Part shown: in pieces, positions 2,517 to 59,435 of the stretch
Layout: each line of letters begins with the position of its first letter
How positions within the stretch are numbered: the first letter of the stretch is position 1
Assembly: GCA_024137785.1 (NCBI GenBank)
Contig: JAHRHZ010000115.1
Span: forward strand, 515,579-579,578
Reading direction: 5' to 3'
Origin: Ginglymostoma cirratum
Lineage: Eukaryota
Length of the DNA stretch: 64,000 bases
Notes under the pieces: generated by a model
What the model was told of the DNA's origin: nothing
The model's database searches: none
The model's input: the letters and a program-made list of their open reading frames with translations, nothing else
Program-made: the position numbers and the translations under genes

Positions 2517-2899
2517 NNNNNNNNNNNNNNNNNNNNNNNNNNNNNNNNNNNNNNNNNNNNNNNNNNNNNNNNNNNNNNNNNNNNNNNNNNNNNNNNNNNN
2601 NNNNNNNNNNNNNNNNNNNNNNNNNNNNNNNNNNNNNNNNNNNNNNNNNNNNNNNNNNNNNNNNNNNNNNNNNNNNNNNNNNNNNNNNNNNNNNNNNNNN
2701 NNNNNNNNNNNNNNNNNNNNNNNNNNNNNNNNNNNNNNNNNNNNNNNNNNNNNNNNNNNNNNNNNNNNNNNNNNNNNNNNNNNNNNNNNNNNNNNNNNNN
2801 NNNNNNNNNNNNNNNNNNNNNNNNNNNNNNNNNNNNNNNNNNNNNNNNNNNNNNNNNNNNNNNNNNNNNNNNNNNNNNNNNNNNNNNNNNNNNNNNNNN
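2517..2899. other. Assembly gap
   Basis: Run of N. Confidence 1.
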
Positions 2900-8599: not shown

Positions 8600-10445
8600 G
8601 GAGTGTGATCTGGACACCCAAAACAGACGAGAAAGACAGATGTGTGGCATATTCCAGGAAAGTGTAAAAACAGTACTTAAAAATATAAATGGATTTCAAA
8701 TTCCCCGTTGTTAACTGGGATGGTCTCAAAGTGAAGTGCCCAGAGGAGACTGAGTTCTCAAAACGTGACCAGGAGAGTTTTCTTTCTAAGATAGAATTTC
8801 GAAAGCTCTACAAAGTCCTGGGGTGCAGGCCCTAATTTTAGGGAACAAATCCAGGCAAGTGGCAAAAGAGTCAATTGGAGACAATTTTGGTGATAGTGGC
8901 TGCTGTTCTGGAAGATATCAGATATTCAGGGGGAAAATAAAAATATCGATGAGAAATAAAAGTTTTGAATTGAGGCAAGGCCGATTTTATTCTGATATGA
9001 CTAGACGTAACGAAAGTGGCTCAGGAGCAACTACCAACGGAAAACATACATCAGAGAACTGGAAGTTTTTCCAATGCGAAATAATGAGATTGTAGGTTCA
9101 AATTGTTCCTTAAAGATGAAGACAAGTAGCAAAAATCCCAAAGGTCGCAATAGATGGAGAAATGTAAAGGATCAGAGAAGCAAAAAAACTACATTTATGG
9201 TAGATACTGCAGTCTCAGAATCTCAGAAACACAAGAAAAATGCAGAAAGTACAGGGGTTGCTTAAAAATAACTAAGAAAAGTAAAGAGAATGCCTTTTCT
9301 ATAAAACAAAAGTGGCTATAATAGAGGAAAAGTCAAAAAACATTCAATGAATATTTAAAGAGCAAGAACATACTGAGGGAAAGATTGGGACCCATGTGAA
9401 AACTGAATACCTAACTGTGGTGGAGCTGGAAGACTTTAGTTTTTTTGATACAGTACGTTACATCTGTTCTCACGACAAAGAAAGATACAGAGATATAAAT
9501 CTGGTAAGAATGCTGTGGTAATTCAAAAATGTTCAGTTGGGACAGAAAAAAATATTTGTGGTGTTCGAGGGCATAAAATTGCATAAGATACAAGTCCCAA
9601 AACCCTAAGCAAGGGAATAGATTATACAGACCCTGGTGTGAATTTTCAAATCGTCCATGTACGACAGAAAGATGCCAGAGCACTGATGGCCTGCTAGCGT
9701 GTCGATTCAAGAATTTTTGCAAGGATCATTCACGGAATTACATTATAATCTCTTGAGTCTAGCATCGGTGCAGTGGAAATTATTGTAAAAAGAAATCTGA
9801 GAGACGACATTCATTAAAAGTTGGAAACATAAGTTTTAAAAAATAAAATTCAAAATGACTTTTTTGGGAGTGGTATCATGTCAGACATTTTTGATACCAT
9901 GTTCCAAGGAGGCGACGATATGTGTGGTTGAGGGGAGAAAATGATGTAAACCACGTTGACTTCAAGAATGTTTCTGATTAGGTCTTTCATCTAAAATGAG
10001 TTAAAAATTCTTGGAGCTCAATGCAATTCTGGAAATTGTATCCAACGTTTACTTGATGGAAGAAAGCAGAGTGTAATAACTGAAGGTAGTCTTTGTGAAA
10101 AAAAACTTTGTGCCCAGTGGTGTTTTGCAAGATTTTGGTGCTGGGTCATTTATGGTTTGTAATTTATATTGATGATCTAGTCATAAATACAGGAATTTTG
10201 ATCAGTCAATTCATAGATGAGGCGAAAGATGTGTGGTATTGCAATTAGTCAGGAGGAAAGCCTTACACAACTGTATGATATAGATAATTTACCTGTCGGA
10301 CAGAACAATGCATGATAGCTCATTATCCTGAAACCTGTGAAAGTGAAGCATTTTAGATGACTATAAAGTCAAGAGAATAAACGATGCATGGTTTGAACTT
10401 TCAGAATGTAAAGGATAAGTGGTCACTTGCTTTGCATATCCCCTT
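8600..10445 (+). mobile_element. Decayed CR1-type LINE ORF2; resumes at about 13640-13700
   Basis: Remnants of the DFN/DW, DFxKAFD and PSGVxQxxVLG motifs; colinear with the copies at 17730 and 42115. Confidence 0.7.
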
Positions 10446-10449
10446 CAAG

Positions 10450-13400
10450 GGAAAGGTGATGGTCGAGAGGTATTGTCACTTGATTATTAATTCAGGAAAC
10501 TCAGCTAATGTTTTGGGGATCCGCGTTTGAACCTCGTGACGGTAAATTGTGGAATTTGAATTTAAATATGTATGTCTGGAACTACTGATGACAGTTAAAA
10601 CATTATCTATTTTCAGAAAGTCCCATCAATAATTTCCTTCAGGGAAGGGAATTTGCATTTCTCACTTGGTTTTGGCCTACATGAAACTCCAGACCCAAAG
10701 CAATATGGTTGATTCTCAACTGCCCTAGCAAACCATTCAGTTGAATCAATTTGCAAAATCCAAATAAAGGGATGAAATTAGATTGAGCTCCTGGCATTGA
10801 CCAACATGCTGGCAGAGTCTTCGGCAGAAACATCTGCATTGAACCTGCAACATCCTCCTTAGAAACAACTTGGGTCTGATGCCAAATTTTGGATATCTTT
10901 CTCACAGACTAGTTATGCGACAGCCTGCTAAATTCATCGTTCAAACACAGTCACACAAGCACTATACCATCCCTGAAATGCCCTGTCCCACCTGCAGGAC
11001 ATCCTACCAGAAGTGGCAGCACATTAGTTAACAGTCGGAAGGGAGTTGCTTTTGAGTTGTCAACATTAATTCTAGACCACATGCAATTTCATGCCTTCTA
11101 GTTTAAAAATAGGCGCAGAAATCTCCTTCTAATTGCTATGAACCATCTACTCTTCGCTGATAATCAGTTCTCCTCAATTTTTAACAGCAGTTGGGAAAGC
11201 ACTGAAGGTGGCAAGGAAGCAAAATGTACTTCGGCTGGTGAACTTGAATGTCTACCTGTAGGAGTACTGAGGCAGCAACACTACTGTTCGAGCTGATCGG
11301 ATCCAAAACGACATGGCCCCCAGATTGGATATGCAGTCGTTGGTGAGGGGACCAACAAGAGGGAACCTGCATAGTCGACCTCATCTTTACCAAATACCGT
11401 CAGCAGATGCATCTGTTATTGACAGAATCAAAACAGTGATCACCATATAGCCCGATGTCGAAGAAGTACCACCTTCGCATTGAGAATACTCTACAATGTG
11501 TTGCCTCACTTTATCAGCATGCTAAATGGGACAGATCTGGTAACTCAACATTTGACATTCATGATGTGTTTTTGGCCATCAACAGAATCAGGATTATATT
11601 CCAGTGTAATCTGCAACTCCATCGTCCTGCATATTCTCCACTCAATCAGTTTGATCAAGAGAGAGGATCAGCCCTGGTTTAGTACAAAATTTAGGAAAGA
11701 ATCCCAGGAGCAGCATCGAGCATACTTTAAAAAGAGGTTTCAACCTGCTGAAGCTGCACACAGGTAATATTCACGTGCCAAACAGTATAAGCAGCAAGTG
11801 ATAAACAGTGCGAAGCAATCTCACAGCTAATGGATCAGACCAAAGTTCTGCAGTGGTGCCACATCAAGTCGTGAATTGTGATGATCAATTAAACAATTAT
11901 TTTCAGAGGATCAGGCCAGCCATATATTCTCACCTTTAACAATGGAAGAGACCAACACATCAGTGCAAAACGTGAAGCTGAAACATTCACAGCTATCTTC
12001 AACCAGAAGTGCAAAATGAATGATTTATCTCAGCCTCCTCTCATGGCAGCAACATGACAGATACCAGTCTTCAACCACTTGAATTCATGCCACTTGATTT
12101 CAGGAACCAGTGGGGAGAGCTCAGTACTGCAAAGGTTATCGGCTCTGACAAAATTCTGGCAATAGTACTTAAGACCTGTACTCCAGCATGTTCTACTCTC
12201 CTATCCAAGCTCTTCCATCACAGCAAAAACATCAGAATTTGTCCGAATCAGAATATGGAAAATTAAAAAGGAATTCCCTGTACACAGAAAGCGGATCAAT
12301 ACAAACCAGCTAATTACTGCATCATCAGTCTGCTCTCAATCATGAGTAAAGTGTTTGAAGATACCATCAAAAGTGCGATCAAGCAGCATAAGCTCAGCAA
12401 TAACTTTCTCGGTTACGTGGGATAATGCAATGGCCACTCAGCTCCTGACTGAATTACTGACATCGTTCAAACGTGGACAAAGAACTGAATTCCAGAACTG
12501 AGGGAAGACTGACAGCCCTTGATATCGAGGTCAGTTTCGACCGAGTATGGTTTAAGGAGACAGAGCCAAACTGGAATCAATGAGTATGAGGTGACAAGCA
12601 TTTCTCTGTCTGGAGTCATAACTGGTATATAAGAAGGTGGTTATAGTTGTTGGAGTTCATTCACTCAGCTCCAGGGCATGTTTGTTGGAGTTCCGAAACG
12701 TAGTGTCACAGGCCAATCATCTTCAGCTGCTTCATCAAAGACCTTCCCTCCATCACAAGATCAGAAATAAAATGTCCACTGAAGCTAACACAATGCTCAG
12801 CACCTTTTCCGACTCCTCAGATACAGAAGCAGCTCATATTCAAATCCAACGAGATCCGAGCAATATCCCGACTTGGGCTGTCAAGTAGCAAATAGCATTG
12901 ACACTATAAAAATGCCAGACAATGACCATTGACAGTAAGAGACAATCTAATCACGGCCCTTGTACAGTCAATGGTGTTACCATCACCGAATCCTTTGTTG
13001 TCCACATTCTGGGGGTTGTCAATGACTAGAAACTGAACTGGACAGGCCATATTAAAACACTGGCTACAAAAGCAGACCAGCGGCAAGTAGTACTGTGCCG
13101 AGTAACTCGCACTCCTGACTCCCCACAGACAATCTACCATCTAAAAGGCAGGAATCAGGAGTTGTTAGCATACTTTCTCAATTTTATGGATCGGTGTAGC
13201 TCCAACTACACTCAGGAAGCTTGACATCATCCAGGACAAAGTAACCTGCTTGATCAGCAGCATGTTCACAAGCATCCAGCGCCTCCAAACCTGATGCTGA
13301 ATAGTTACAGCGCATACAATCTACAAGATGAAAATGTAGAAATTTACCAAAATTATTAAGCAGCACCTTATTAACCTATTACCACTCCCATCGAGTAGGA

Positions 13401-13639
13401 CAAGAGCAGCAGATACATGGGAACCACACTACTTGCAAGATCCCCTCCAAGCTACTGACAGCCCTGATGCAGAAATATATCATTGATCCTTCTCTGTAAC
13501 TGGGTCAAAATTCTGGAATTCCCTTCCGAAGGACATTTTGTACTGTGACATTTCAGAAAGGCAGTCATCACCATCATCTCAACTAGAGACGGGTGCTAAC
13601 GGCCAGTGTGTCCAACAAGTAAAAGCAAAAAAAAAAAAA
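10450..13639 (+). mobile_element. Composite retroelement: tRNA-derived SINE head/body (about 10450-10740) fused to a decayed APE-RT ORF and poly(A) tail
   Basis: Head matches the SINE at 58835; APE start (ILLRNNLGLMPNFGYLSHRLVMRQP) near 10850, SDH near 11435; RT TALDIEVSFDRVW near 12510 and GVP..IFSCFIKDL near 12690; A-tail ends 13639. Confidence 0.75.
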
Positions 13640-13829
13640 TCCTTGAATGTAAAGTGCCAGTTCAATAACTTGGCTAAAAAGGCAACATGAGGAATTGATA
13701 AGCTGTCAAAAGACTTGCAGTGAAGATCCAGTTGGGATTTCAATTGTTTCCACGAATATAAAATGAAAATGCTAGCATAATTAACAATAATCTTCGACTT
13801 ACTTAAGTTTTGGAACTCCTTGCATGGCT

Positions 13830-14045
13830 CAGTATTGTCATTCAGAGAAGGAGGCCTGTACTGCTTACCTGCCTGTCCTACTTTTCAAAAGTAAGGCGCT
13901 TGTTCCTTAACTGCTCCTAAACTGACTAAGAAGCCAATCAGTTGTATTAAAGCTTCTTTAGAATCACAAATCATTATTTGTCCAGCAAGACGACAGGGTT
14001 TCAAAAACGTAGATGATGACCACATTCTTGAAAAGCAAAACTAAC
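13830..14045 (+). mobile_element. Decayed short derivative of the same SINE/LINE family (body plus 3' tail)
   Basis: TTCAGAGAAGGA..CTTACC, AAGCCAATCAGTTGTAT, then a tail resembling 13550-13590. Confidence 0.45.
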
Positions 14046-14339: not shown

Positions 14340-14695
14340 ACGTCGCATCACAGTGTAATATCACTGGAGGAGCATTCCCGAATCCAAGTTTGATGTTTAT
14401 TGGACAGGGGTTGAAATCCCAGTGTTTGCTGTTTGTGCAATTTCAATTCAAAGAAAACCTGGAATGACAAAGCAGGCTGAATGGCGACAATGTAACCAGA
14501 GTCAATGGAAAAACACAAAAACGGTGAATCACTAATAACCGTTAGAAAAGACATCTATCACCCTTTCCTGGTCTGGCCTACAGACCCACAGCAAAAATAA
14601 TTGACTCTCTTCTGAAATGGCCTTAGCAAGCTACTCAATGGGCGATTGGGAATAGGGGTGCATTGCCGACACACCATGAAAGAATAAAAGAAAAT
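14340..14695 (+). mobile_element. tRNA-derived SINE (same family as 58835), decayed
   Basis: CCTGGTCTGGCCTACAGACCCACAGCA..CTGAAATGGCCTTAGCAAGCTACTCA followed by tail and A-rich end. Confidence 0.65.
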
Positions 14696-16504
14696 ATAAG
14701 CGTGACTAAACCTCACAAAAACTACATTAATTAACTGAAATCGCCTTCGCAGTTCCTGATTTTACATCAAGTATTTTATCTGAATATCCTAAAACGAACT
14801 TTGAGCTAAGTTGAGCCTTTGGATATCTTTTCTGTCTAAACGTATTAAAGTATAAATCAATAGGAGATAAAGAATAAATTCAGTTGTACGGAAATGTTGC
14901 ATTGACTGAACTGCAGAATTTCCAGAAATGATTTTTTAACCTGAATTAAACTTTAACATTGTGTTTAACTTTTGGTAATAAGCAACATCTGTTGCATTCG
15001 TTGCTCAGGAAATTTGTATTCATTTCTGCCAACAGTCAACTTTCTTAAAATAAACTTGTTTTGATTCAAAACTTATCCATAAATAACTTCGTTCATCTGG
15101 GTTGGTCGCCATCAGCGCTTTTGAAACCACTGAAGCGTTTATGTAAATAAATACAGAAATAGAACTCTCAAAATAGATTACAAAACAACAAAAACGCAAT
15201 TTATATTTCCCAACGAACACAGAATACAAATGGTAGCAAATATGCCAATGACTCAACGGAATGTAATACTAATTGACGGAGGACTTTTTAAATTATAAGT
15301 AATATGATGTAGAATCACATTGATACCAATTTCAACATTTAGTAAAAGCATCTCTATTTGGAAGATACACTTGCACAAGCAATGTTTCTGCTTCTCTCTC
15401 TCTCTCTCATTCATCCCTTCCCGCTTTCTCGTTTTTCGTTGTATCTGACACCCTGTTTTTCTTCTCCACAATCGGACAATGTTTTTTCTCCATAGCTTGA
15501 AGTCAATTCTTAACTCACACATTCTGTCAGCCCAACTAATGCACCTTTATTTCCCACAGAGACTTGAGTCAGTCGGGCATTTTTTTTCCCGAAAATGTGT
15601 ATTTGAGTATTCGGTGATCTGGAAGTGCTTATCGGGAAACCACAGAGTGGTCTTTGCTCAGCATCTAATTGGTAGGGTATCGAAGGTGCAAGGCTTTACT
15701 ATGACGGTGTTGAAAAGGCTTTTCATTGTATCATACCAGTGTTGTTCATGGCTGAAAACTGTTTGATGGCTCAGTGTAATGCATAATTAGTGTATAATTA
15801 AACTTCACTGCACATCTCATGGAATGTTTAATATTAAAGTGAAGAGGGCGGTTTACTCTGCATCGAAATTGTATTGTACATGGCGTGAAAGTGCTTTATT
15901 TTGGGAATCTTTGATGGAGGAGCTAAACCATACCGTATTTGACATGATTTTATTGGATAGAACAATGTAGACAGACATTTATTCCGCAGTTATTGTGAGC
16001 TGTGCAAGCACATAATGTAACAGCGTAAAGGGGTCTTTCACTTCTGCCATTGTCTTCCTGATTTGGGCATGTTTGATAGCAGAAAGAAAGGGGGACAAAA
16101 CCCTGCGTCGAACTTTTGTGATACAGACTTGCGTGTGTGTGTGTGTGGAGGTAAATAGTATGTAATATGTGTAATATGTGTATATTTCACGCTCCACATG
16201 CCAACAGTGTTTTTGATACAGTAGTTTTCGACGTATTTTCGTCTGTCTTTAACATTCTCCGTAGCAGCCTTGGTAGTATTTGATAAATATTCAACAAAAT
16301 TGAAGGGACACTGGTTTAGTTACCAAATTATAGAAAGGATGTGATCACACCAAACAGGGACTGATATCTATTGATGATGTTATCAAGACTTTTTTTTTTG
16401 TCATGTCAAAGAGGAATTGAAGTGTCTGGACTGGTCTTGTAAAACATGAAGCTGATGTGAAATTCAAATCAGGCCTGTAATAATACTGCAATGTCCAACT
16501 TAGA

Positions 16505-17290
16505 GCAAATATTAATTGCAATTCCATAAGAATGGGAACCAGAAGTAGGCCATTCTGCCGATTGCTCTTCCATTCAGTGCTGTGGGTCTGGAGTCACATG
16601 TAGGCCAAACCGGGTAAGAATGGAAGTGTCCTTCCCTAAAGGACGTTCATAAACCAGATAGGCTTTTCCTGGCAATCAACAATGGATTCATGGTCATCAT
16701 TAGATTCTTTATTCCAGATATTTTACTGAATTCAAATTCCATTAGCTGCCGCTAGAGGATTCGAACCCTGGTCCCCAGAATGTTATCTCAGTATCCGGAT
16801 TAACAGTCTGGTGACAGTACCACTAGGTCGTCCTTCTAATTCCATTCCCAATTGAAAATCTGTCCAGTTAATCCTTGAAAATACTGAGGGACGCAACCTC
16901 AACAGTCTTCTGTGGTAAAAAAAATCCGCAGATTTACTGGGAGGAGAAATTTGTGGTTTAAATTTGTGGTGTCCGATTCAGACAATATCTGCTCTTCCCC
17001 TAAACTGTCCCACAAAGCGAACAATATTTTTGCATTTAACCCATCAAGTTCCCTATAAATAATTCATGTTTCAATGTGCCACCATTCAATCTTCTATATC
17101 CCAAAAGTACAGGCACAAACCACTCATCCTGTATTCACAGAACAGGCCTTCCAGCCTCGCGATCAGCCGACAGAACCTCGTAAGGATTGTTTCGTATTCC
17201 AGTGGATCTTTCCTTCAATACGAGGCCCAGAACAGTTCACAGTATTCAAGCTGTAGAGTGACGAATGCTTTTATACTTCTTACAATGATT
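16505..17290 (-). mobile_element. CR1 3' fragment interrupted by a SINE
   Basis: CR1-type 3' end (AGAAGTAGGCCATTC) and RT C-terminal remnant. Confidence 0.6.
16578..16836 (-). mobile_element. tRNA-derived SINE (same family as 58835), tail missing
   Basis: Reverse complement aligns to 58835-59105; B box GGTTCGAATCC is intact. Confidence 0.8.
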
Positions 17291-33163: not shown

Positions 33164-35000
33164 TCTGGGGTGGAACACATTAGCGTTGTGATTTGCTGGC
33201 GAACATGCAGCCCTCCGCTCCCTCCGCTCCAATCCCAACCTCACCATAAAACCCGCGGACAAGGGAGGGGCAGTCGTAGTATGGCGCACTGACCTCTACT
33301 TTGCTGAGGCCAGGCGCCAACTCTCTGACACCTCCTCCTACCGCCCCCTAGATCATGACCCCTCCCCCGAGCACCAAACCATCATCTCCCAAACCATGCA
33401 CAACTTCATCATCTCAGGTGACCTCCCACCCACCGCCTCCAACCTCATCATTCCCCAACCCCGCACCGCCCGCTTCTATCTCCTCCCCAAAATCCACAAA
33501 CCTGAATGCCCCGGTCGACCCATTGTCTCCGCCTGCTCCTGCCCCACCGAACTCATCTCCACCTACCTAGACTCCATTTTCACCCCCTTGGTCCAGGAAC
33601 TTCCTACCTACGTCCGTGACACCACCCACGCCCTCCGCCTCCTCCAGAACTTCCAATTCCCCGGTCCCCAACACCTCATTTTTACTATGGACATCCAGTC
33701 CCTATACACCTGTATTCCCCATGCTGATGGCCTAAAGGTCATCCGCTTAGCCGAACTCGTCCTCACCCTCAACAACTTTTCTTTCAATTCCTCCCACTTC
33801 CTACAGACAAAGGGGGTGGCCATGGGTACCCGCATGGGCCCAAGCTATGCCTGCCTCTTTGTAGGTTATATGGAACAATCCCTCTTCCGTACCTACACTG
33901 GCCCTAAACCCCACCTCTTCCTCCGTTACATTGATGACTGCATCGGCGCCGCCTCGTGCTCCCACGAAGAGCTCGAACAGTTCATCCACTTCACCAACAC
34001 CTTCCACCCCAACCTGAAGTTCACCTGGACCATCTCCAACACTTCTCTCTCCTTCCTGGACCTCTCTGTCTCCATCTCGGGCAACCACCTAGAGACAGAT
34101 GTCCATTTCAAGCCCACTGACTCCCACAGCTACCTGGAATACATTTCCTCCCACCCACCCTCCTGCAAAAATGCCATCCCCTATTCCCAATTCCTTCGCC
34201 TCCGCCGCATCTGCTCCCAGGATGAGACATTCCACCCCCGTACATCTCAAATGTCCTCATTCTTCAAGGACCGCAACTTCCCCCCCACAGTGGTCAAGAA
34301 CGCCCTTGACCGTGTCTCCCGCATTTCCCGGAACACATCCCTCACGCCCCGTCCCCACAATAATAACCAAAAAAGAATCCCCCTCGTCCTCACATACCAC
34401 CCCACCAACCTCCGGATCCAACGCATCATCCTCCGACACTTCCGCCATCTGCAATCAGACCCCACCACCGAAGACATTTTTCCCTCCCCACCCTTATCTG
34501 CCTTCCGGAGGGACCACTCCCTCCGCGACTCCCTTGTCCGCTCCACACTCCCCTCCAGCCCCACCACAGCCGGCACTTTTCCTTGTAACCGCAGGAAGTG
34601 CTACACCTGCCCCCACACCTCCTCCCTCACCCCAATCCCAGGCCCCAAGAAGACGTTCCACATCAGGCAGATGTTCACCTGCACATCTGCCAATGTGGTA
34701 TACTGCATCCGCTGTACCCGTTGTGGCTTCCTCTACATCGGGGAAACCAAGCGGAGGCTTGGGGACCGCTTTGCAGAACACCTGCGCTCAGTTCGCAACA
34801 AACAACTGCACCTCCCAGTCGCGAACCATTTCAACTCCCTCTCCCATTCCTCAGATGACATGTCCATCCTGGGCCTCCTGCAATGCTGCAGTGATGCCAC
34901 CCGAAGGCTGCAGGAACAGCAAATCATATTCAGCCTGGGAACCCTGCAGCCCAATGGCATCAATGTGGATTTCACAAGCTTCAAAATCTCCCCTCCCCCA

Positions 35001-35400
35001 NNNNNNNNNNNNNNNNNNNNNNNNNNNNNNNNNNNNNNNNNNNNNNNNNNNNNNNNNNNNNNNNNNNNNNNNNNNNNNNNNNNNNNNNNNNNNNNNNNNN
35101 NNNNNNNNNNNNNNNNNNNNNNNNNNNNNNNNNNNNNNNNNNNNNNNNNNNNNNNNNNNNNNNNNNNNNNNNNNNNNNNNNNNNNNNNNNNNNNNNNNNN
35201 NNNNNNNNNNNNNNNNNNNNNNNNNNNNNNNNNNNNNNNNNNNNNNNNNNNNNNNNNNNNNNNNNNNNNNNNNNNNNNNNNNNNNNNNNNNNNNNNNNNN
35301 NNNNNNNNNNNNNNNNNNNNNNNNNNNNNNNNNNNNNNNNNNNNNNNNNNNNNNNNNNNNNNNNNNNNNNNNNNNNNNNNNNNNNNNNNNNNNNNNNNNN
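35001..35400. other. Assembly gap
   Basis: Run of N. Confidence 1.
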
Positions 35401-35502
35401 CTTTACTGGCTCCATCCCCGCCTCTTCGACTCGTCTGCCTCCTCTCCTCTATCCGCCTCCCCCTCTCTCCCTATTTATTTCAGAACCCTCTTCCCCTCCC
35501 CC

Positions 35503-35538
35503 ATTTCTGATGAAGGGTTTAGGCCCGAAACGTCAAGT
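35503..35538 (+). ncRNA. Minimal hammerhead ribozyme
   Basis: ATTT-CTGATGA-A-GGGT(TTAG)GCCC-GAAA-CGTC-AAGT: core, 4-bp stem II, palindromic ACGT in place of stem III, 4-bp stem I. Confidence 0.75.
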
Positions 35539-36403
35539 TTTCCTGCTCCTATGATGCTGCTTGACCTGCTGTGTTCATCCAGCCCCATGCTTCTACTGGT
35601 CAACTTATGGGGTGTCAAAGTGTCACCATGCCCACACAGGTACAGGTTCCACCCCCGAAATCATCATAATGCTGGAAATTGACCTTTGAGAAACAATTGA
35701 GGACTGGAAGCATTCTGTCAGATTGAACCCTCCTTTTCTGTCCAACATCTATGAGCAAAATCCTTTCTTTTAGCTTCCTTTCTGTTTCCTTTTTTTTCCA
35801 TTCTGTGGTAAAATTATTGACTTGTAGAAACTGAAGGGAAGTAAGTGAACTTAGGCAGGGTGCAGAGTCTGTACAGGACAGGAAATAGTGACCTTGGATC
35901 TGTTTATCAGTACCTTCAGGAGAACGGGGAGGGTATATATTAGGGACAGCAGAGTGAGCATTGTGGGAGAATGTGGGAGGAGAGAGAGGAAAAAGCTATC
36001 CCAGAGGAAACTAGAATCCTCTGTTCTGAATTTTTAACTTATACTTATTCCTTTTACAGGATGCTAGAAGGTGAAGATTTGCAGACAGAAATCACAAAAC
36101 AAACATCATGTGCGGATAGTGATTAAATTAAGCAGAACTTGAATAACCATTGATGGAGAAATGTCCATTTGTTCTGTCTGCATCGAAGGTTTTAAAATCA
36201 GTTTGACTAGAAAAGCCCTGTGACACACCCTCTTACCCCAAGTAAGAGTCTTCCAGTGAACCAACTCTGGAAAAAACTTTAATCGGCGACGCAGCCTAAA
36301 TAGCATCAGACCATTCACAGCAGGGAGACACCATACCCACGCTCCGTGTGGATGAGGCTTCAGCTGATTATTGAACACTCAGAGACACAGCAACACCAAT
36401 AAC

Positions 36404-36994
36404 ATGGAGAAACCATGGAAGTGTGATGACTGTGGGAAGGGATTTCATTCGCTGTCAACACTAGAATTTCATCGACGTGGTCACAGCAGGGAGAGGCCAT
36501 TGACATGCTCTGAATGTGGAAAGGAATTCCCTAATTCGTCTGCTCTTCGGAAACATCAACGTGCTGCCACTGGAGAGAGGCCTTTTGCCTGTTCCGAGTG
36601 CGGGAAGAAATTCAGGGAATATTTCACCTTGTTGAGACACCAGCGAGCCCACACTGGGGAGAACCCATCCACCTGCTCGGAGTGTGGGAAGGTATTCACT
36701 CAGTTGTCCAGCTTGCGTGCACACCTGCGAGTTCACTCCGGGGAGAGACCATTTAGCTGTTCTGATTGTGGAAAGGAATTCATTCAATTATCACATCTGA
36801 GGAAACATGAGCAAATTCACACTGGGGAGAGACCATTCAAGTGCTCCAACTGTGGGAAACGATTCAGGGATTCATCTGGCCTACAGGTACACCAGCGAGT
36901 TCATACTGGGGAGAGGCCATTCATCTGTTCCGAGTGTGGGAAAGGATTCATTCAGTCATCACATCTGCGGAAGCATAAGCAAATTCACAAGTGA
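36404..36994 (+). CDS. C2H2 zinc-finger protein, 196 aa, 7 fingers (finger 2 lacks its last His)
   Basis: ATG in AACATGG context, MEKPWKC start, TGERP linkers; acceptor TTTTACAG at about 36059. Confidence 0.8.
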   Translation: MEKPWKCDDCGKGFHSLSTLEFHRRGHSRERPLTCSECGKEFPNSSALRKHQRAATGERPFACSECGKKFREYFTLLRHQRAHTGENPSTCSECGKVFTQLSSLRAHLRVHSGERPFSCSDCGKEFIQLSHLRKHEQIHTGERPFKCSNCGKRFRDSSGLQVHQRVHTGERPFICSECGKGFIQSSHLRKHKQIHK

Positions 36995-37039
36995 ACACAG
37001 GATCTGCTGTGAATCAGCAACAGCATCCGTTCTGTTAGG

Positions 37040-37310
37040 TTGCACCTTCGAAACTCTAAACCGCTGAAGTGTAGAACAAGGGCAACAGTTACCAGAAAAT
37101 ATGCCTCCACGTCGCACACCATCATCACTTGGAACTATATTGGCTGTTCTTTCACTGTCACTGGGTCAAAATCCTGGAACTCTTCCCTCACAGCATTGTG
37201 GGTGTCCCTACACCACAAGGACTGTAGTCCCAGAAGGCAGCTTCTCAAGCAAGACAATTCAGGATGAGCAGTAAATGCTGACATAGATATTGATACTATA
37301 CCCCATGAAT
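37040..37310 (+). mobile_element. 3' fragment of the LINE family seen at 10450-13639, in the ZNF 3' UTR
   Basis: CACTGGGTCAAAATCCTGGAACTC matches about 13500; shared tail. Confidence 0.7.
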
Positions 37311-49900: not shown

Positions 49901-50393
49901 GCTATATGTTGAGCAGGACGTAAGTTTAGCTATCTTGCTAATCCAAGAGTGGGCTAAAGAAATGAATTCAACCACGTTAGACGTGGAGAATACTCGGGGT
50001 GAAGGAAAGGATGGACCCAGGACTTTGGATTTCAGCTCAGGGACGACGGTGTTTTGCGGGATTGGTGACTTACTCTTTTGATGAACAATACAGTTTCCAT
50101 ACAAATTGGAATTCTTGGTTTTGAATTGCTCTCCTATGCTTTTGGTGGACAGTTTTGTGAACGTCTTTCCCAAGGTTTTTTTTAGGAGTTCTCAGTATCA
50201 TGGGTCTTTGAATGCACCAGGGGAAATGTTTGTCTGTGCTGACCTGGCTGTAACATTTCACCCATCAGTGTGAGATGTGAAAAGAGCTTTAAACAGTCAC
50301 AAAACCTCATAACAAACATTACACTATTCAAAGCAGGAGAAACTCTTCAAGTGTTCTGTTCACAACCTAGAGAAACACAAGGACACATGTGCC

Positions 50394-51824
50394 ATGGAAA
50401 AACCATGGAAATGTGAGGAATGTGGTAAAGGATTTGATTACCCGTCCCTGCTGGAAAACCATCGACGTTATCACACTGGAGAGAAGCCGTTTATTTGTTC
50501 TGTATGTGGGAAGGCATTTACTCAGTCATCTGGCCTTTGGTCACACCAGCGAGTTCACACTGAGGAAAAGCTGTTCAGCTGCACTTCCTGTGGAAAGAGA
50601 TTCAGGCATTCTTCTGCCCTTACTGTGCACCAACGCACTCACAACGGAGAAAAACCATTCACCTGCTCTGAGTGTGGAAAGGGATTCACTCATTTATCCA
50701 CCCTGCAGGCACACCAGCGAGTCCACACTGGGGAGAAGCCATTCACCTGCTCAGAGTGTGGGAAGGATTTCACTCAGTTGTCCACCCTCCAGATACACCA
50801 GCGAGTTCACACTGAGGAGAAGCTGTTCAGCTGCACATCCTGTGGAAGGAGGTTCAGGCATTCTTCTGCCCTCACTGTGCATCAACGCACTCACACTGGG
50901 GAGAGGCCGTTCACCTGCTCTGACTGTGGGAAGAAATTCACTCAGTCCTTTCATCTTCAGGCACATCAGCGCATTCATACAGGGGAGAGACCTTTCTCCT
51001 GCTCTGTGTGTGGGAAGGGATTCATTGTTTTACCCACTCTGCTGAGACACCAGCGAATTCACACAGATGAGAGGCCTTTTAAATGCCCCGATTGTGAGAA
51101 GGGTTTTAAAAGTTCCCAGGAGCTGACGCTCCATCAACGTATTCACACCAATGAGAGGCCGTTCAGGTGCTCTCACTGTGGGGCTGGATTCAGGAGATCA
51201 TCTGACCTCATTCTCCACCAACGAATTCACACTGGGGAGAGGCCATTCACCTGCTCCGAGTGTGGAAAGGGATTCACTCGGACAGCCAATCTTCTGAAAC
51301 ACCAGCGATTTCACACTGAGGAAAGACCATTCAGCTGCTCAGAGTGTGGGAAAGGATTTACTCAGTCCTCCACCCTGCTGACACACCAGCAAGTTCACAC
51401 CACTGAAAGGCCTTTCAAATGTCCAGACTGTGGGAAGTGCTTTAAAATTTCCGGGGAGCTGATGCGCCATCAACGTGTTCATACTGACGAGAGACCATTC
51501 AGGTGCTCTCACTGCGGGACTGGCTTCAAACAATCATCTCAACTCAGTATGCACCAGAGAATTCACACTGGAGAGAGGCCCTTCACCTGTTCCGAGTGTG
51601 GGAAGGGGTTCACTCGATCATCCCATCTGATGATGCACCAGCAGATTCACACTGGAGAAAGGCCTTTCATATGCTCCACGTGTGAAAAGAAATTCACTCA
51701 CTTATCCAACCTGCGGAGACACCAGCGAGTTCACACAGGGGAGAAGCCATTCGCCTGCTCCGAGTGTGGGAAAGGATTCACTCGGTCATCTAACCTGCTG
51801 GCCCACCAGCGAGTTCATGAGTAA
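50394..51824 (+). CDS. C2H2 zinc-finger protein, 476 aa, 17 intact fingers, no effector domain in this ORF
   Basis: Kozak GCCATGG, MEKPWKC start, 17 C-x2-C-x12-H-x3-H units with TGE(K/R)P-type linkers. Confidence 0.93.
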
Positions 51825-52519: not shown

Positions 52520-52919
52520 NNNNNNNNNNNNNNNNNNNNNNNNNNNNNNNNNNNNNNNNNNNNNNNNNNNNNNNNNNNNNNNNNNNNNNNNNNNNNNNNN
52601 NNNNNNNNNNNNNNNNNNNNNNNNNNNNNNNNNNNNNNNNNNNNNNNNNNNNNNNNNNNNNNNNNNNNNNNNNNNNNNNNNNNNNNNNNNNNNNNNNNNN
52701 NNNNNNNNNNNNNNNNNNNNNNNNNNNNNNNNNNNNNNNNNNNNNNNNNNNNNNNNNNNNNNNNNNNNNNNNNNNNNNNNNNNNNNNNNNNNNNNNNNNN
52801 NNNNNNNNNNNNNNNNNNNNNNNNNNNNNNNNNNNNNNNNNNNNNNNNNNNNNNNNNNNNNNNNNNNNNNNNNNNNNNNNNNNNNNNNNNNNNNNNNNNN
52901 NNNNNNNNNNNNNNNNNNN
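52520..52919. other. Assembly gap
   Basis: Run of N. Confidence 1.
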
Positions 52920-57620: not shown

Positions 57621-59435
57621 GGGTATTCACGGGTTGGACATCCAGAAGCTGCAACAAGTCATCACATCAAAATCAGACAGAGTCATTCAGTTCATCAGAT
57701 TCTGAATACCATCAGCCTCTGAATGCGGAGAGAGAAATGCTTGTCTGTGAGAAAAGATTTTAAACATGAGTGTGACTGCAAAAGCACCAAGACACACACC
57801 CAAGGGAAAGTGTTCCAGTGAACTGACCGTGGTAAGAGCATTAACCAGTTATACAGCCTGAAAAATAATGACACCATCCACAACAGGGAGAGACCATTCA
57901 TGTGTTTTGTCTGTGCAAATCAGTTTCATTCAATCATTGAACCTGGAAAGAATCAAGAACACTGACACCATGGAGAAACTGTGGAAATGTGGGGTGTGTG
58001 GGAAGGGATTCAGTTACCCATCAGGGTTGGAAACTCATCAACACAGTTACACTGGGGAGAGGCCTTTCAGCTGCTTCGTGTTTGGGAAGCAATTCACTCA
58101 GTCATCCAGCCTCTACACATACCAGCATGTTCACACGGGGGAGAGGCCAATTCTCCATGTATGTACAGAAATTGAACGCTTTATCAACCCTCCGGATGCT
58201 TGAGCAGGTTCACTCCGATGCAAGATCGTTTAAATGTTCTGATTGTGAGAAGAGTTTTAAAAGCAGAAAGGATACATTGATACGTCAATGCAGTCACACT
58301 GGGGAGAGACCATTGACCTGCAAAGTGTGTGGGAAAGGATTCACTCAGTCATCCCACCTCCTGACACATCAACTTGTTCACACTGATGAGAGACCTGTTA
58401 AATGTTCTGACTGTGAGAAGAGCCTTTAGGTGTAAAAAGGGTTTACTGAACCACCATTGCACTCTGACTGGAGAGAGACCGTTCATCTGCTCTGTGTGTG
58501 GGTAGGGATTTACTCGTTCATCCTACCTTCTGACACATCAATTTGTTCACACTGTTGAGAGACTTTCTGGATGTCATGACTGTGAGAAAAAGATTTAAAT
58601 GTGGAAAACATCTTCTTAAACACCAGTACACTTACACAGGGGAGAGGCTATTCTTCTGCTCTGCCTGTGGGAAAGGATTCACTCGAATATCTCACTTGCT
58701 GAGACACCAGTGAGTTCTCACTGGGGTGAGGCCATGCTCCTGTGCTAAGTGAGAACAGGAATTTGTCGATTTATCCAATCTCTGATCCACCAGCGAGTTC
58801 ACACTGGGGAGAGGCCACACTCCCCACAAATGATGGGGAGATGATGGCCTAGTGGTGTTATCACTGGACTGTTAATCCAGAGACCCAGACAACGTTCTGG
58901 GGAAGTGGGTTTGAATCCTGCCTCAGCAGATGGTGGAATTTGAATTCAATTAAAAAATATCTGGAAATAAGAATCTAATGATGACCATGAATCCATTGCT
59001 GATTGTCAGAAAAAAACCCACCTGGTTTGCTAATGTCCTTTAGGGAAGAAAACTGCCATCCTTACCCATTCTGGCCTACACGTGACTCCAGACCCGCAGC
59101 ACTGTGTTTGACTCTTAACTGCCCTCTGGGCAATTAGGATTGGCAATAAATGCTGCGGTTAGTGACGCCCTCATCCCATTAATGAATAAAGAAAAAAAAA
59201 CCTGCTCCCTGTGTGGCAAGAGATTCATTCACTCGTCCCACCTCACCACACACCAATTTGTTCATGCTGATGACAGACTTTTTAATGTTCTGACTGCGAG
59301 AAGAGGTTTAAAAGTAAACAGAATCAGCTGAAAGGTCAACAAATTCACACTGGGGAGGTACCTTTCGTCTTCTCCATGTGTGGGAAAGGTTTCGCTCAGT
59401 CACACTACCTCCTGAAACACCAGCAACTTCACTTG
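57621..59435 (+). pseudogene. C2H2 zinc-finger pseudogene (MEKLWKC start at 57970) with a SINE insertion
   Basis: Many HTGERP fingers with frameshifts and stops, resuming at 59201 after the SINE. Confidence 0.9.
58835..59200 (+). mobile_element. tRNA-derived SINE, full length (family name not assigned)
   Basis: A box TGGCCTAGTGG, B box GGTTTGAATCC, body CCTTTAGGGAAGAAAACTGCCATCCTTACC, tail GGCAATAAATGCTG, A tract. Confidence 0.9.

What the first reader, a model, noticed from the sequence alone, without database searches (positions are those of the whole stretch)
10450..13639. A LINE with a SINE head: tRNA-derived 5' end fused to APE-RT, inserted as one unit
Seen: the first roughly 290 bp match the free SINE at 58835 (A/B boxes and body), and about 110 bp later the APE domain begins, leaving no room for ORF1. 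RT motifs and a poly(A) tail follow. The host CR1 breaks at about 10445 (..TTGCATATCC) and resumes colinearly at about 13640 (ATCCTTGAATG..AAGGCA), which fits one insertion better than chance adjacency. Inference: an ORF1-less protein-coding retroelement using a Pol III-type head as its 5' end, possibly the parent of the SINE family. I cannot tell whether this architecture is already catalogued.
Basis: partly seen in the sequence, partly recalled or inferred. Interest (0 to 1): 0.75.

Follow-up and report, generated by a model that had tools for sequence, protein, structure and literature searches.

The report
Shark LINE with tRNA-derived SINE head
A decayed shark-type jumping gene that encodes its own copying enzyme begins with the same tRNA-like start as nearby short parasitic repeats, a combination textbooks keep apart, but only one such copy could be examined.

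Summary
Bases 10454-10726 match the free SINE at 58839-59125 (67% over 290 columns, E 4e-30). The homology extends to 10765 with an older copy. The APE domain starts at 10849 and the broken APE-RT frame runs to about 13540, followed by A13. An ATCC duplication flanks the unit, and the host CR1 continues colinearly. No SINE tail lies after the head or after the poly(A), so nesting is unlikely. The ORF belongs to an elasmobranch family in the Zenon-related branch of the CR1 group. Lack of ORF1 is already known there; the tRNA head is the unusual part. The free SINE's tail matches this family's 3' UTR, so the SINE looks like LINE head plus LINE tail. Its body is not the Deu domain. A second head-ORF junction was not found, but no shark genome could be searched and the substitute searches were weak. 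Best reading (0.55): a SINE-headed, single-ORF LINE family. Main rival (0.3): a one-off template-switch chimera. Pol III transcription is untested.

The parts
9902..10441 (+). Host CR1-type LINE, RT region, 5' of the insertion (extends further upstream)
   Evidence: scores 94-112 vs shuffle maxima 60-71 with three CR1-type proteins
10438..10441 (+). Left copy of target site duplication ATCC
   Evidence: sequence
10442..10448 (+). Seven extra bases between the duplication and the head, origin unknown
   Evidence: sequence
10449..10540 (+). tRNA-like head with decayed A box (10460) and B box (10524); the wide spacing suggests a long-variable-arm tRNA
   Evidence: Rfam tRNA-Sec weak hit only on the free SINE
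10541..10726 (+). Body shared with the free SINEs; not Deu by motif search, and unlike Meta or UCON3 by eye
10727..10765 (+). Extension absent from the 58.8 kb SINE but shared with the 14.4 kb copy (to about 10737) and the 13.8 kb copy (to 10765)
   Evidence: 21 of 2000 shuffles; 4 of 2000
10766..10848 (+). LINE-only spacer, room for about 28 codons of leader; no SINE tail, longest A run 4; its two ATGs are out of the APE frame in this copy
10849..11535 (+). APE endonuclease domain, broken
   Evidence: score 82 vs best shuffle 29 of 30; P0055 N-terminal hit 10855-10977, E 0.004
11536..13540 (+). Linker, reverse transcriptase and C-terminal region, broken
13541..13626 (+). End of frame and short, decayed 3' UTR
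13627..13639 (+). Poly(A) tail, A13
   Evidence: sequence
13639..13642 (+). Right copy of target site duplication ATCC (first A shared with the tail)
13643..13790 (+). Host CR1 resumes colinearly; end point approximate
   Evidence: not significant on its own
58835..59199 (+). Free SINE: same head and body, then a tail like the LINE 3' UTR, then poly(A); no run of four T
16575..16842 (-). Second SINE copy, head and body only
14345..14690 (+). Older SINE copy, about 55% identical to the others
13813..13971 (+). Old body fragment matching the LINE head through 10765
   Evidence: E 1.7e-4; 0 of 2000 shuffles
37033..37310 (+). 5'-truncated 3' end of a second copy of the same LINE family; its UTR matches the SINE tail
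   Evidence: E 1.5e-6 to the element; tail 0 of 2000 shuffles

Best explanation
This is a dead, full-length copy of an elasmobranch single-ORF LINE family of the Zenon-related CR1 branch whose 5' end is a tRNA-derived head plus body. SHOWN: head, body, spacer, APE-RT and poly(A) lie between one target duplication inside an older CR1, and the free SINE consists of the same head and body joined to the LINE's 3' tail. INFERRED: a template switch once placed a tRNA or SINE head on the LINE RNA. The 3.2 kb RNA was then made from that head, translated without ORF1 from a short leader by a cap-independent or non-AUG route, and inserted by target-primed reverse transcription. The free SINEs are shorter relatives that keep the promoter end and the RT-recognised tail and borrow the enzyme. 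Whether Pol III really copies the whole 3.2 kb, or the head serves a Pol II or read-through transcript, is open; I put full-length Pol III transcription at about 0.4 if the family is real.
For: One ATCC duplication and colinear host CR1. No SINE tail in the spacer (803, 963 and 940 of 2000 shuffles score as well; no profile hit). The join keeps the entire ORF plus about 28 codons of leader, like relatives with leaders of 21-34 residues (5 of 21 listed); random truncation plus switching should rarely do that (inference). Three other copies leave the LINE sequence at three different points, 10726, about 10737 and 10765, as deletion derivatives would. The SINE tail matches the second LINE copy's UTR (0 of 2000). 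Head and ORF seem similarly old: the head differs at 55 of 202 sites where two SINE copies agree, and the ORF is 49% identical to a Heptranchias fragment. Of 21 near-full-length relatives, 18 lie on contigs only 125-1280 bp longer than their ORF, in line with short single-ORF elements. T4 runs are at chance level in this ORF (8 observed, 8.0 expected) but 1.8-fold enriched in 5 CR1 fragments (41 vs 22.5; Poisson p about 0.05). I also recall, from no call and unverified, that shark assemblies often show this head running into this ORF; that recall adds a little to my odds.
Against: Only one junction is known. One search found no candidate protein across the junction, one search gave 2 short contigs that do not reach the 5' end, one search found nothing, and 0 of 229 stored proteins hit the head. 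The tail of this very copy does not match the SINE tail (499 of 2000). The tails of the 14.4 kb and 13.8 kb copies do not match LINE tails significantly (63-1070 and 402-698 of 2000; no hit). Nested end points also arise by deletion within one long SINE. After simulated decay a T4-free start and an unconstrained start give the same count (8.0 vs 8.3), so T runs do not decide. The TTC preference (7:1) is not beyond the element's general C bias (p 0.13). Contig lengths need not equal element lengths. PMC10886601 states that non-LTR retrotransposons use Pol II and that Pol III processivity limits element length.
Confidence: 0.55

Rival explanations
1. One-off chimera. During a single insertion the RT copied an ordinary Zenon-like LINE RNA almost to its 5' end, then switched to a SINE RNA bound in the same particle. 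If the body is the LINE's own 5' UTR, as in SINEs built from a head plus LINE ends, the switch would be homology-guided and would fall exactly here.
For: Also gives one target duplication and no SINE tail. SINE and LINE share an RT-recognised tail. Template switching between small RNAs and LINE RNAs is the accepted route to new SINEs (PMC5499810; PMC5786205). No second junction was found.
Against: A non-homologous switch would have to land within about 85 bp of the APE start after 2.8 kb of copying (inference). The searches that failed were weak and included no shark genome.
Confidence: 0.3
2. Nested insertions tidied up later: a SINE inserted at the 5' end of a LINE, or the LINE into a SINE, and a deletion or gene conversion between the shared tails removed the SINE's 3' part.
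For: The window is dense in nested repeats and holds 4 other copies of the head or body. Seven unexplained bases precede the head. The duplication is only 4 bp, one base of which belongs to the poly(A).
Against: No SINE tail or A run after the head, none after the poly(A), where CR1 resumes at once. An extra, precisely placed deletion is needed.
Confidence: 0.1
3. The head homology is chance, or the junction is an assembly error.
For: The copy is old and the tRNA signal in the LINE head itself is below detection.
Against: E 4e-30 and 2e-25 to two SINE copies; host CR1 is colinear on both sides; the nearest N gap is more than 7 kb away.
Confidence: 0.03

Closest known systems
Zenon / CR1-Zenon LINEs (ZENON_BM; lepidopteran single-ORF CR1; amphioxus BfCR1)
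   Same: Nearest RT relatives lie in a group holding lepidopteran and Branchiostoma proteins; one of them, P0214, resembles ZENON_BM by eye. Single APE-RT ORF and poly(A) tail (PMC6740152, passages; PMC3708506, passages). CR1-Zenon-like LINEs are listed for whale shark (bioRxiv 443036, passage).
   Different: The Zenon-derived element Persaeus, which keeps the Zenon 5' UTR, has no tRNA homology or Pol III promoter; this copy starts with one. No 2A motif was seen in the leader translations (by eye), unlike relative P0175.
SINEs made of a tRNA head plus 5' and 3' ends of a LINE (Bov-tA, WALLSI2, CoeSINE4, SINE2_Gav), and SIDEs (Persaeus, Vingi-1_EE derivatives)
   Same: The free SINE is head, body shared with the LINE 5' region, and LINE tail.
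   Different: There the head is on the short element only, and PMC5786205 found only RTE and Vingi LINEs giving SINE bodies. Here the coding element carries the head and is of the CR1 group.
Ingi-3_AC (Aplysia)
   Same: A coding LINE whose 5' UTR may have taken a SINE segment by recombination (PMC5786205).
   Different: That segment is an internal body piece (243-310 of a 450-base UTR), not a terminal tRNA head.
SacSINE1 / Deu-SINEs of sharks
   Same: tRNA-headed shark SINE mobilised by a LINE (PMC5499810, parts 1-3 of 6; PMC3747384 table).
   Different: The Deu domain shown in the PMC7245038 supplement has no match in the window. The SacSINE1 consensus itself could not be seen.
Small-RNA/LINE template-switch chimeras (U6-L1 type; recalled, mentioned in PMC5499810)
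   Same: RNA-derived 5' part joined to a LINE 3' part within one target duplication.
   Different: Those are one-off copies with a usually truncated LINE part (recalled); here the whole ORF is kept and the SINE part lacks its own 3' end.
TRIMp3 elements (Cassandra, Helenus, Ajax)
   Same: Pol III promoter from a small RNA gene in a retroelement other than a plain SINE (PMC10886601, passages).
   Different: They are short, non-coding LTR elements.

Membership tests
CR1-Zenon LINE | RT groups with Zenon, apart from CR1 proper | tested here: inconclusive
   (40 rows, 380 columns): element plus 2 shark fragments, support 100; within a group containing lepidopteran and amphioxus proteins, support 79; sister to the Zenon-containing clade with support 40 only; CR1-type proteins outside. 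No named reference sequence was in the tree; one CR1-type shark fragment (P0010) fell at the base of the larger group.
CR1-Zenon LINE | APE followed by RT in one long ORF | tested here: met
   (broken, colinear with profile positions 7-923 of 944); relatives carry PF03372/PF14529 and PF00078
CR1-Zenon LINE | No ORF1 (in lepidopteran members) | tested here: met
   83-122 bp between head homology and APE in this copy; not testable for the family
CR1-Zenon LINE | 5' UTR without tRNA homology or Pol III promoter | tested here: not met
   head matches a tRNA-type SINE; contrast PMC6740152
tRNA-derived SINE (free copy 58835-59199) | A and B boxes, tRNA-like head | tested here: met
   0 and 1 mismatches; Rfam tRNA-Sec E 0.32, below the gathering score
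tRNA-derived SINE (free copy 58835-59199) | 3' tail shared with a partner LINE, poly(A) | tested here: met
   0 of 2000 shuffles vs the 37.2 kb LINE copy; 499 of 2000 vs the 13.6 kb copy
SacSINE1 / Deu-SINE | Deu domain in the body | tested here: not met
   17-nt Deu motif, up to 3 mismatches: 0 matches in the window; no likeness by eye to the alignment
SacSINE1 / Deu-SINE | Tail like L2-2_CM or CR1-4_DR | not testable with these tools
   Repbase entries and the supplement of PMC5499810 not available
Meta-, UCON3-, V- or CORE-SINE | Respective conserved body domain | tested here: inconclusive
   Meta and UCON3 alignments compared by eye only, no likeness; V and CORE sequences seen in no call
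SIDE / bipartite LINE derivative (for the free SINE) | 5' part from the LINE 5' end and 3' part from the LINE 3' end | tested here: inconclusive
   met against this one LINE copy and the 37.2 kb tail, but depends on the head being part of the family
SIDE / bipartite LINE derivative (for the free SINE) | No Pol III promoter | tested here: not met
   A and B boxes present
One-off template-switch chimera | Single target duplication around both parts | tested here: met
One-off template-switch chimera | Junction unique in the genome | not testable with these tools
   no shark genome collection; uninformative
Pol III-transcribed coding LINE (proposed) | Sense strand free of T4+ terminators in the active family | tested here: inconclusive
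   11 T4+ runs in this copy; the 3 in the head are absent from the SINE copies, so decay makes them; 3 of the 8 in the ORF have aligned relatives, which encode other residues there, 5 have no coverage; simulation cannot separate the cases

The most novel reading that the evidence does not exclude
Sharks and rays harbour an 'autonomous SINE': a single-ORF LINE family transcribed over 3.2 kb by RNA polymerase III from a tRNA-derived head, kept free of T-run terminators, translated without cap or ORF1, and shedding its own SINE family by internal deletion.
Probability: 0.22. Interest if true: 0.85.

Novelty: new variant of a known kind. Interest (0 to 1): 0.55.

Why it matters
The usual rule is that coding LINEs use Pol II and SINEs use Pol III, with Pol III limiting length (PMC10886601). 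A coding family with a tRNA head would test that rule directly, including whether a Pol III transcript can be translated into a 950-residue enzyme. It would also show a SINE body present in the 5' region of a CR1-group LINE, where a systematic Repbase screen found only RTE and Vingi donors (PMC5786205), and it would blur which partner is parent. If it is a one-off chimera it is a minor fossil of template switching.

Tried and rejected
Looking for a second junction: (profile of the junction reading, 3 rows) had no candidate with three shared words; (bacterial and archaeal genome set, hoping for host DNA) gave 2 confirmed loci of 53 pattern matches, 1.2 and 1.6 kb, too short to reach the 5' end and without DNA similarity to the window; others (plasmids; phages) no match; 0 of 229 stored proteins hit the head. 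One search used the wrong frame and found nothing. The ESM Atlas gave no result for the junction, so that check is open. Pfam on single frames failed because of decay. I first took the SINE for SacSINE1/Deu from recall and dropped that. Rfam gave no ribozyme or other family above its gathering score in either head. RNAalifold on 4 heads gave a weak structure (-12.4 kcal/mol, covariation -0.56) and no cloverleaf. Insertion of the LINE into a SINE was rejected because no SINE remainder follows the poly(A). The T-run and Phe-codon tests of Pol III use were inconclusive; the CR1 control was aligned to distant proteins. Rows left out of the tree: near-duplicates, one tandem-duplicated protein, one host-gene fusion, and most fragments under 800 residues. 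Literature: searches listed no paper describing a tRNA-headed coding LINE; most listed papers were seen only as listings. The Vingi paper PMC3002237 was not held. Repbase and Dfam could not be consulted and may already hold this family. Unseen supplements that may bear on family identity: PMC5499810 (none readable), file 1 of PMC4824008 and of PMC3708506 (not searched), and those of bioRxiv 443036.

Full report
What is there. The region is an old non-LTR retrotransposon inserted in an older one. Bases 10454-10726 match the free SINE at 58839-59125 (67.2% over 290 columns, E 3.7e-30) and a second copy at 16824-16578 (68.9%, E 2e-25). A profile of the four heads finds a fifth, older fragment at 13813-13916 (E 1.7e-4), which matches the LINE up to 10765 (0 of 2000 shuffles overall; 4 of 2000 for the part beyond the 58.8 kb SINE's end point). 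The free SINE has clean A and B boxes; in the LINE head they carry 2 and 4 mismatches (patterns recalled). Tool support for a tRNA origin is weak: tRNA-Sec at 19.6 bits, E 0.32, for the free SINE, nothing for the LINE head, no ARAGORN gene. The box spacing of 63 bases fits a long-variable-arm tRNA; a serine tRNA is my recalled guess.

The coding part. Single-frame Pfam scans fail. A frameshift-aware alignment to a profile of 28 relatives places the APE domain at 10849-11535 (score 82; best of 30 shuffles 29), linker and RT at 11597-13258 (482; 3 shuffles 23-28) and the C-terminal part to 13540 (93; best shuffle 29). The whole path has 27 frameshifts and 20 stops. APE starts 122 bp after the end of the match to the free SINE and 83 bp after the longest homology, so this copy has no ORF1. 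A13 follows at 13627-13639.

One insertion. ATCC flanks the unit at 10438-10441 and 13639-13642. The 5' flank is CR1-type RT; the 3' flank is not significant alone; with the insert skipped the match reads through with all 3 proteins tried (118-146 against shuffle maxima 82-109). At DNA level 3 of 8 other CR1 fragments align across the join, the 18 kb copy without loss of bases, though no joined score exceeds its shuffle maximum. No SINE tail or long A run lies in the spacer, and CR1 resumes directly after the poly(A). Nesting therefore needs an extra precise deletion.

Family. A search of 1.84 billion representatives with one RT-proximal stretch gave 362 hits at E<=0.001, 150 listed. Of the 20 proteins looked up, 13 are gene-model fragments from Rhincodon (11), Heptranchias (1) and Heterodontus (1); one search adds Mobula and Scyliorhinus. 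The source is thus very likely an elasmobranch (inferred). In a 40-row RT tree the element groups with two shark fragments (100) inside a group with lepidopteran and Branchiostoma proteins (79), apart from CR1-type proteins; its sister relation to the Zenon-containing clade has support 40. P0214 resembles ZENON_BM by eye, so 'Zenon-related' is an inference, not a membership. Single-ORF CR1 elements are reported in Lepidoptera (PMC6740152, passages) and amphioxus (PMC3708506, passages), and CR1-Zenon-like LINEs in whale shark (bioRxiv 443036, passages). Of 21 near-full-length relatives, 18 sit on contigs only 125-1280 bp longer than the ORF. Lack of ORF1 is therefore ordinary here; the head is what is unusual.

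The SINE. It is not a Deu-SINE: the Deu alignment in the PMC7245038 supplement (file 1 read whole) looks unlike the body, and a Deu motif has 0 matches with 3 mismatches allowed. Meta and UCON3 also look unlike it by eye. Its tail matches the 3' UTR of a second, truncated copy of the same LINE at 37033-37310 (0 of 2000 shuffles) but not the decayed tail of the 13.6 kb copy (499 of 2000); the older copies' tails match neither significantly. So the best-preserved SINE reads as LINE head plus LINE tail, and three copies leave the LINE sequence at three different points (10726, about 10737, 10765).

How it most likely works. Shown: the anatomy above. Inferred: a tRNA or SINE head was joined to a single-ORF LINE by template switching and became its 5' end; the RNA is translated from a leader of about 28 codons, perhaps without an AUG (the two spacer ATGs are out of frame here, but the copy is too broken to tell); the protein inserts the RNA by target-primed reverse transcription with a short duplication; and shorter forms that keep promoter end and tail spread as SINEs. 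I give this 0.55. In favour are the position of the join, which spares the whole ORF, the nested end points, and similar decay of head (55 of 202 sites) and ORF (49% identity to P0180). An unverified recollection that shark assemblies often show this junction adds a little. The main rival (0.3) is a one-off switch from LINE RNA to SINE RNA during this insertion, which explains the single duplication equally well and would be guided to this spot if the body is the LINE's own 5' UTR. Nesting with later deletion gets 0.1.

Pol III. This copy has 11 T4+ runs, but the 3 in the head are absent from the SINE copies, so decay creates them. In the ORF 8 are seen and 8.0 expected, whereas 5 CR1 fragments show 41 against 22.5 (p about 0.05 for the difference). 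Conserved Phe codons are TTC 7 to 1 against 17 to 34 in CR1 (p 0.006), but not beyond the element's own C bias (p 0.13). Simulated decay gives 8.0 runs from a T4-free start and 8.3 from an unconstrained one. These are hints at most; Pol III use is neither shown nor excluded.

What could not be shown. No second head-ORF junction was found, but no shark genome was searchable and each substitute search had little power.

Comparison with what is known. PMC5786205 (passages and parts 3-4 of 5) describes SINEs built from a small-RNA head plus LINE 5' and 3' ends, from RTE and Vingi only, and one coding LINE, Ingi-3_AC, with a possible internal SINE segment. PMC10886601 (passages) states that non-LTR elements use Pol II and that Pol III limits length. 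PMC5499810 (parts 1-3 of 6) and PMC3747384 (passages) list shark SINE-LINE pairs sharing tails only. PMC11481361, PMC10294476 and PMC5381603 (passages) add that CR1-Zenon LINEs partner several SINE superfamilies in bivalves, where full-length consensus elements average 5.2 kb. Nine searches listed no description of a tRNA-headed coding LINE. Repbase and Dfam were out of reach and may hold it.

Verdict. It is best filed as a new variant of a known kind, pending a copy count in shark genomes that would take minutes. Interest 0.55. The boldest reading, a Pol III-transcribed autonomous element that spawns its own SINE, has probability about 0.22 and interest 0.85.

Noticed in passing
window 33192-35510 (+): Long open frame with RT (E 3e-6) and GIY-YIG (E 2e-4) matches in its first 602 codons, i.e. 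a Penelope-like element; it runs into an N gap at 35001-35400.
   Followed up: partly
window 36368-36994, 50313-51824, 57941-58429: C2H2 zinc-finger arrays, one with 17 fingers in an open 503-codon frame; the window is a zinc-finger gene cluster.
   Followed up: partly
window 58821-58839: Fourteen extra bases before the free SINE form a 7-bp hairpin with its 5' end (-11.6 kcal/mol), perhaps a fold-back made during insertion. The SINE sits in a zinc-finger pseudogene with at most a 2-3 bp duplication.
   Followed up: partly
window 16480-17100 (-): The 16.8 kb SINE copy lacks its tail and runs into sequence that looks by eye like a CR1 3' UTR (compare); its upstream flank matches 27647-27562 (E 4e-5). 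Nested in a CR1 tail, or a tail swap.
   Followed up: partly
window 37033-37310 (+): Truncated 3' end of the same LINE family, 40 bp after the stop codon of a zinc-finger frame; it may lie in that gene's 3' UTR.
   Followed up: partly
window about 6.2-6.5, 18.1-19.4, 19.6-23.4, 31.6-32.6, 40.6-42.9, 60.8-61.5 and 62.9-63.9 kb: Many decayed CR1-type fragments on both strands.
   Followed up: partly
protein P0175, residue 26: A relative of the element carries a 2A-like motif just before the APE domain, as described in PMC3708506.
   Followed up: no
proteins P0162, P0187, P0188, P0205, P0206, P0215, P0216, P0226, P0094, P0214: In 10 of 21 near-full-length relatives the predicted start lies within 11 residues of the first APE strand or after it, hinting that the group often lacks an upstream AUG.
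   Followed up: no
L001 and L002 (JAKSCK010000077.1, JAKSCK010000147.1): Two short contigs in a Spirochaetales MAG encode Zenon-related LINE RT fragments, probably animal DNA in the bin.
   Followed up: no
proteins P0177, P0178, P0179, P0182, P0019, P0028: Several gene models, four of them from named shark or ray sources, include a stretch of this LINE's RT as an internal or terminal segment; exonisation or annotation error.
   Followed up: no
window 2517-2899, 35001-35400, 52520-52919: Three N gaps, none near the finding.
   Followed up: yes
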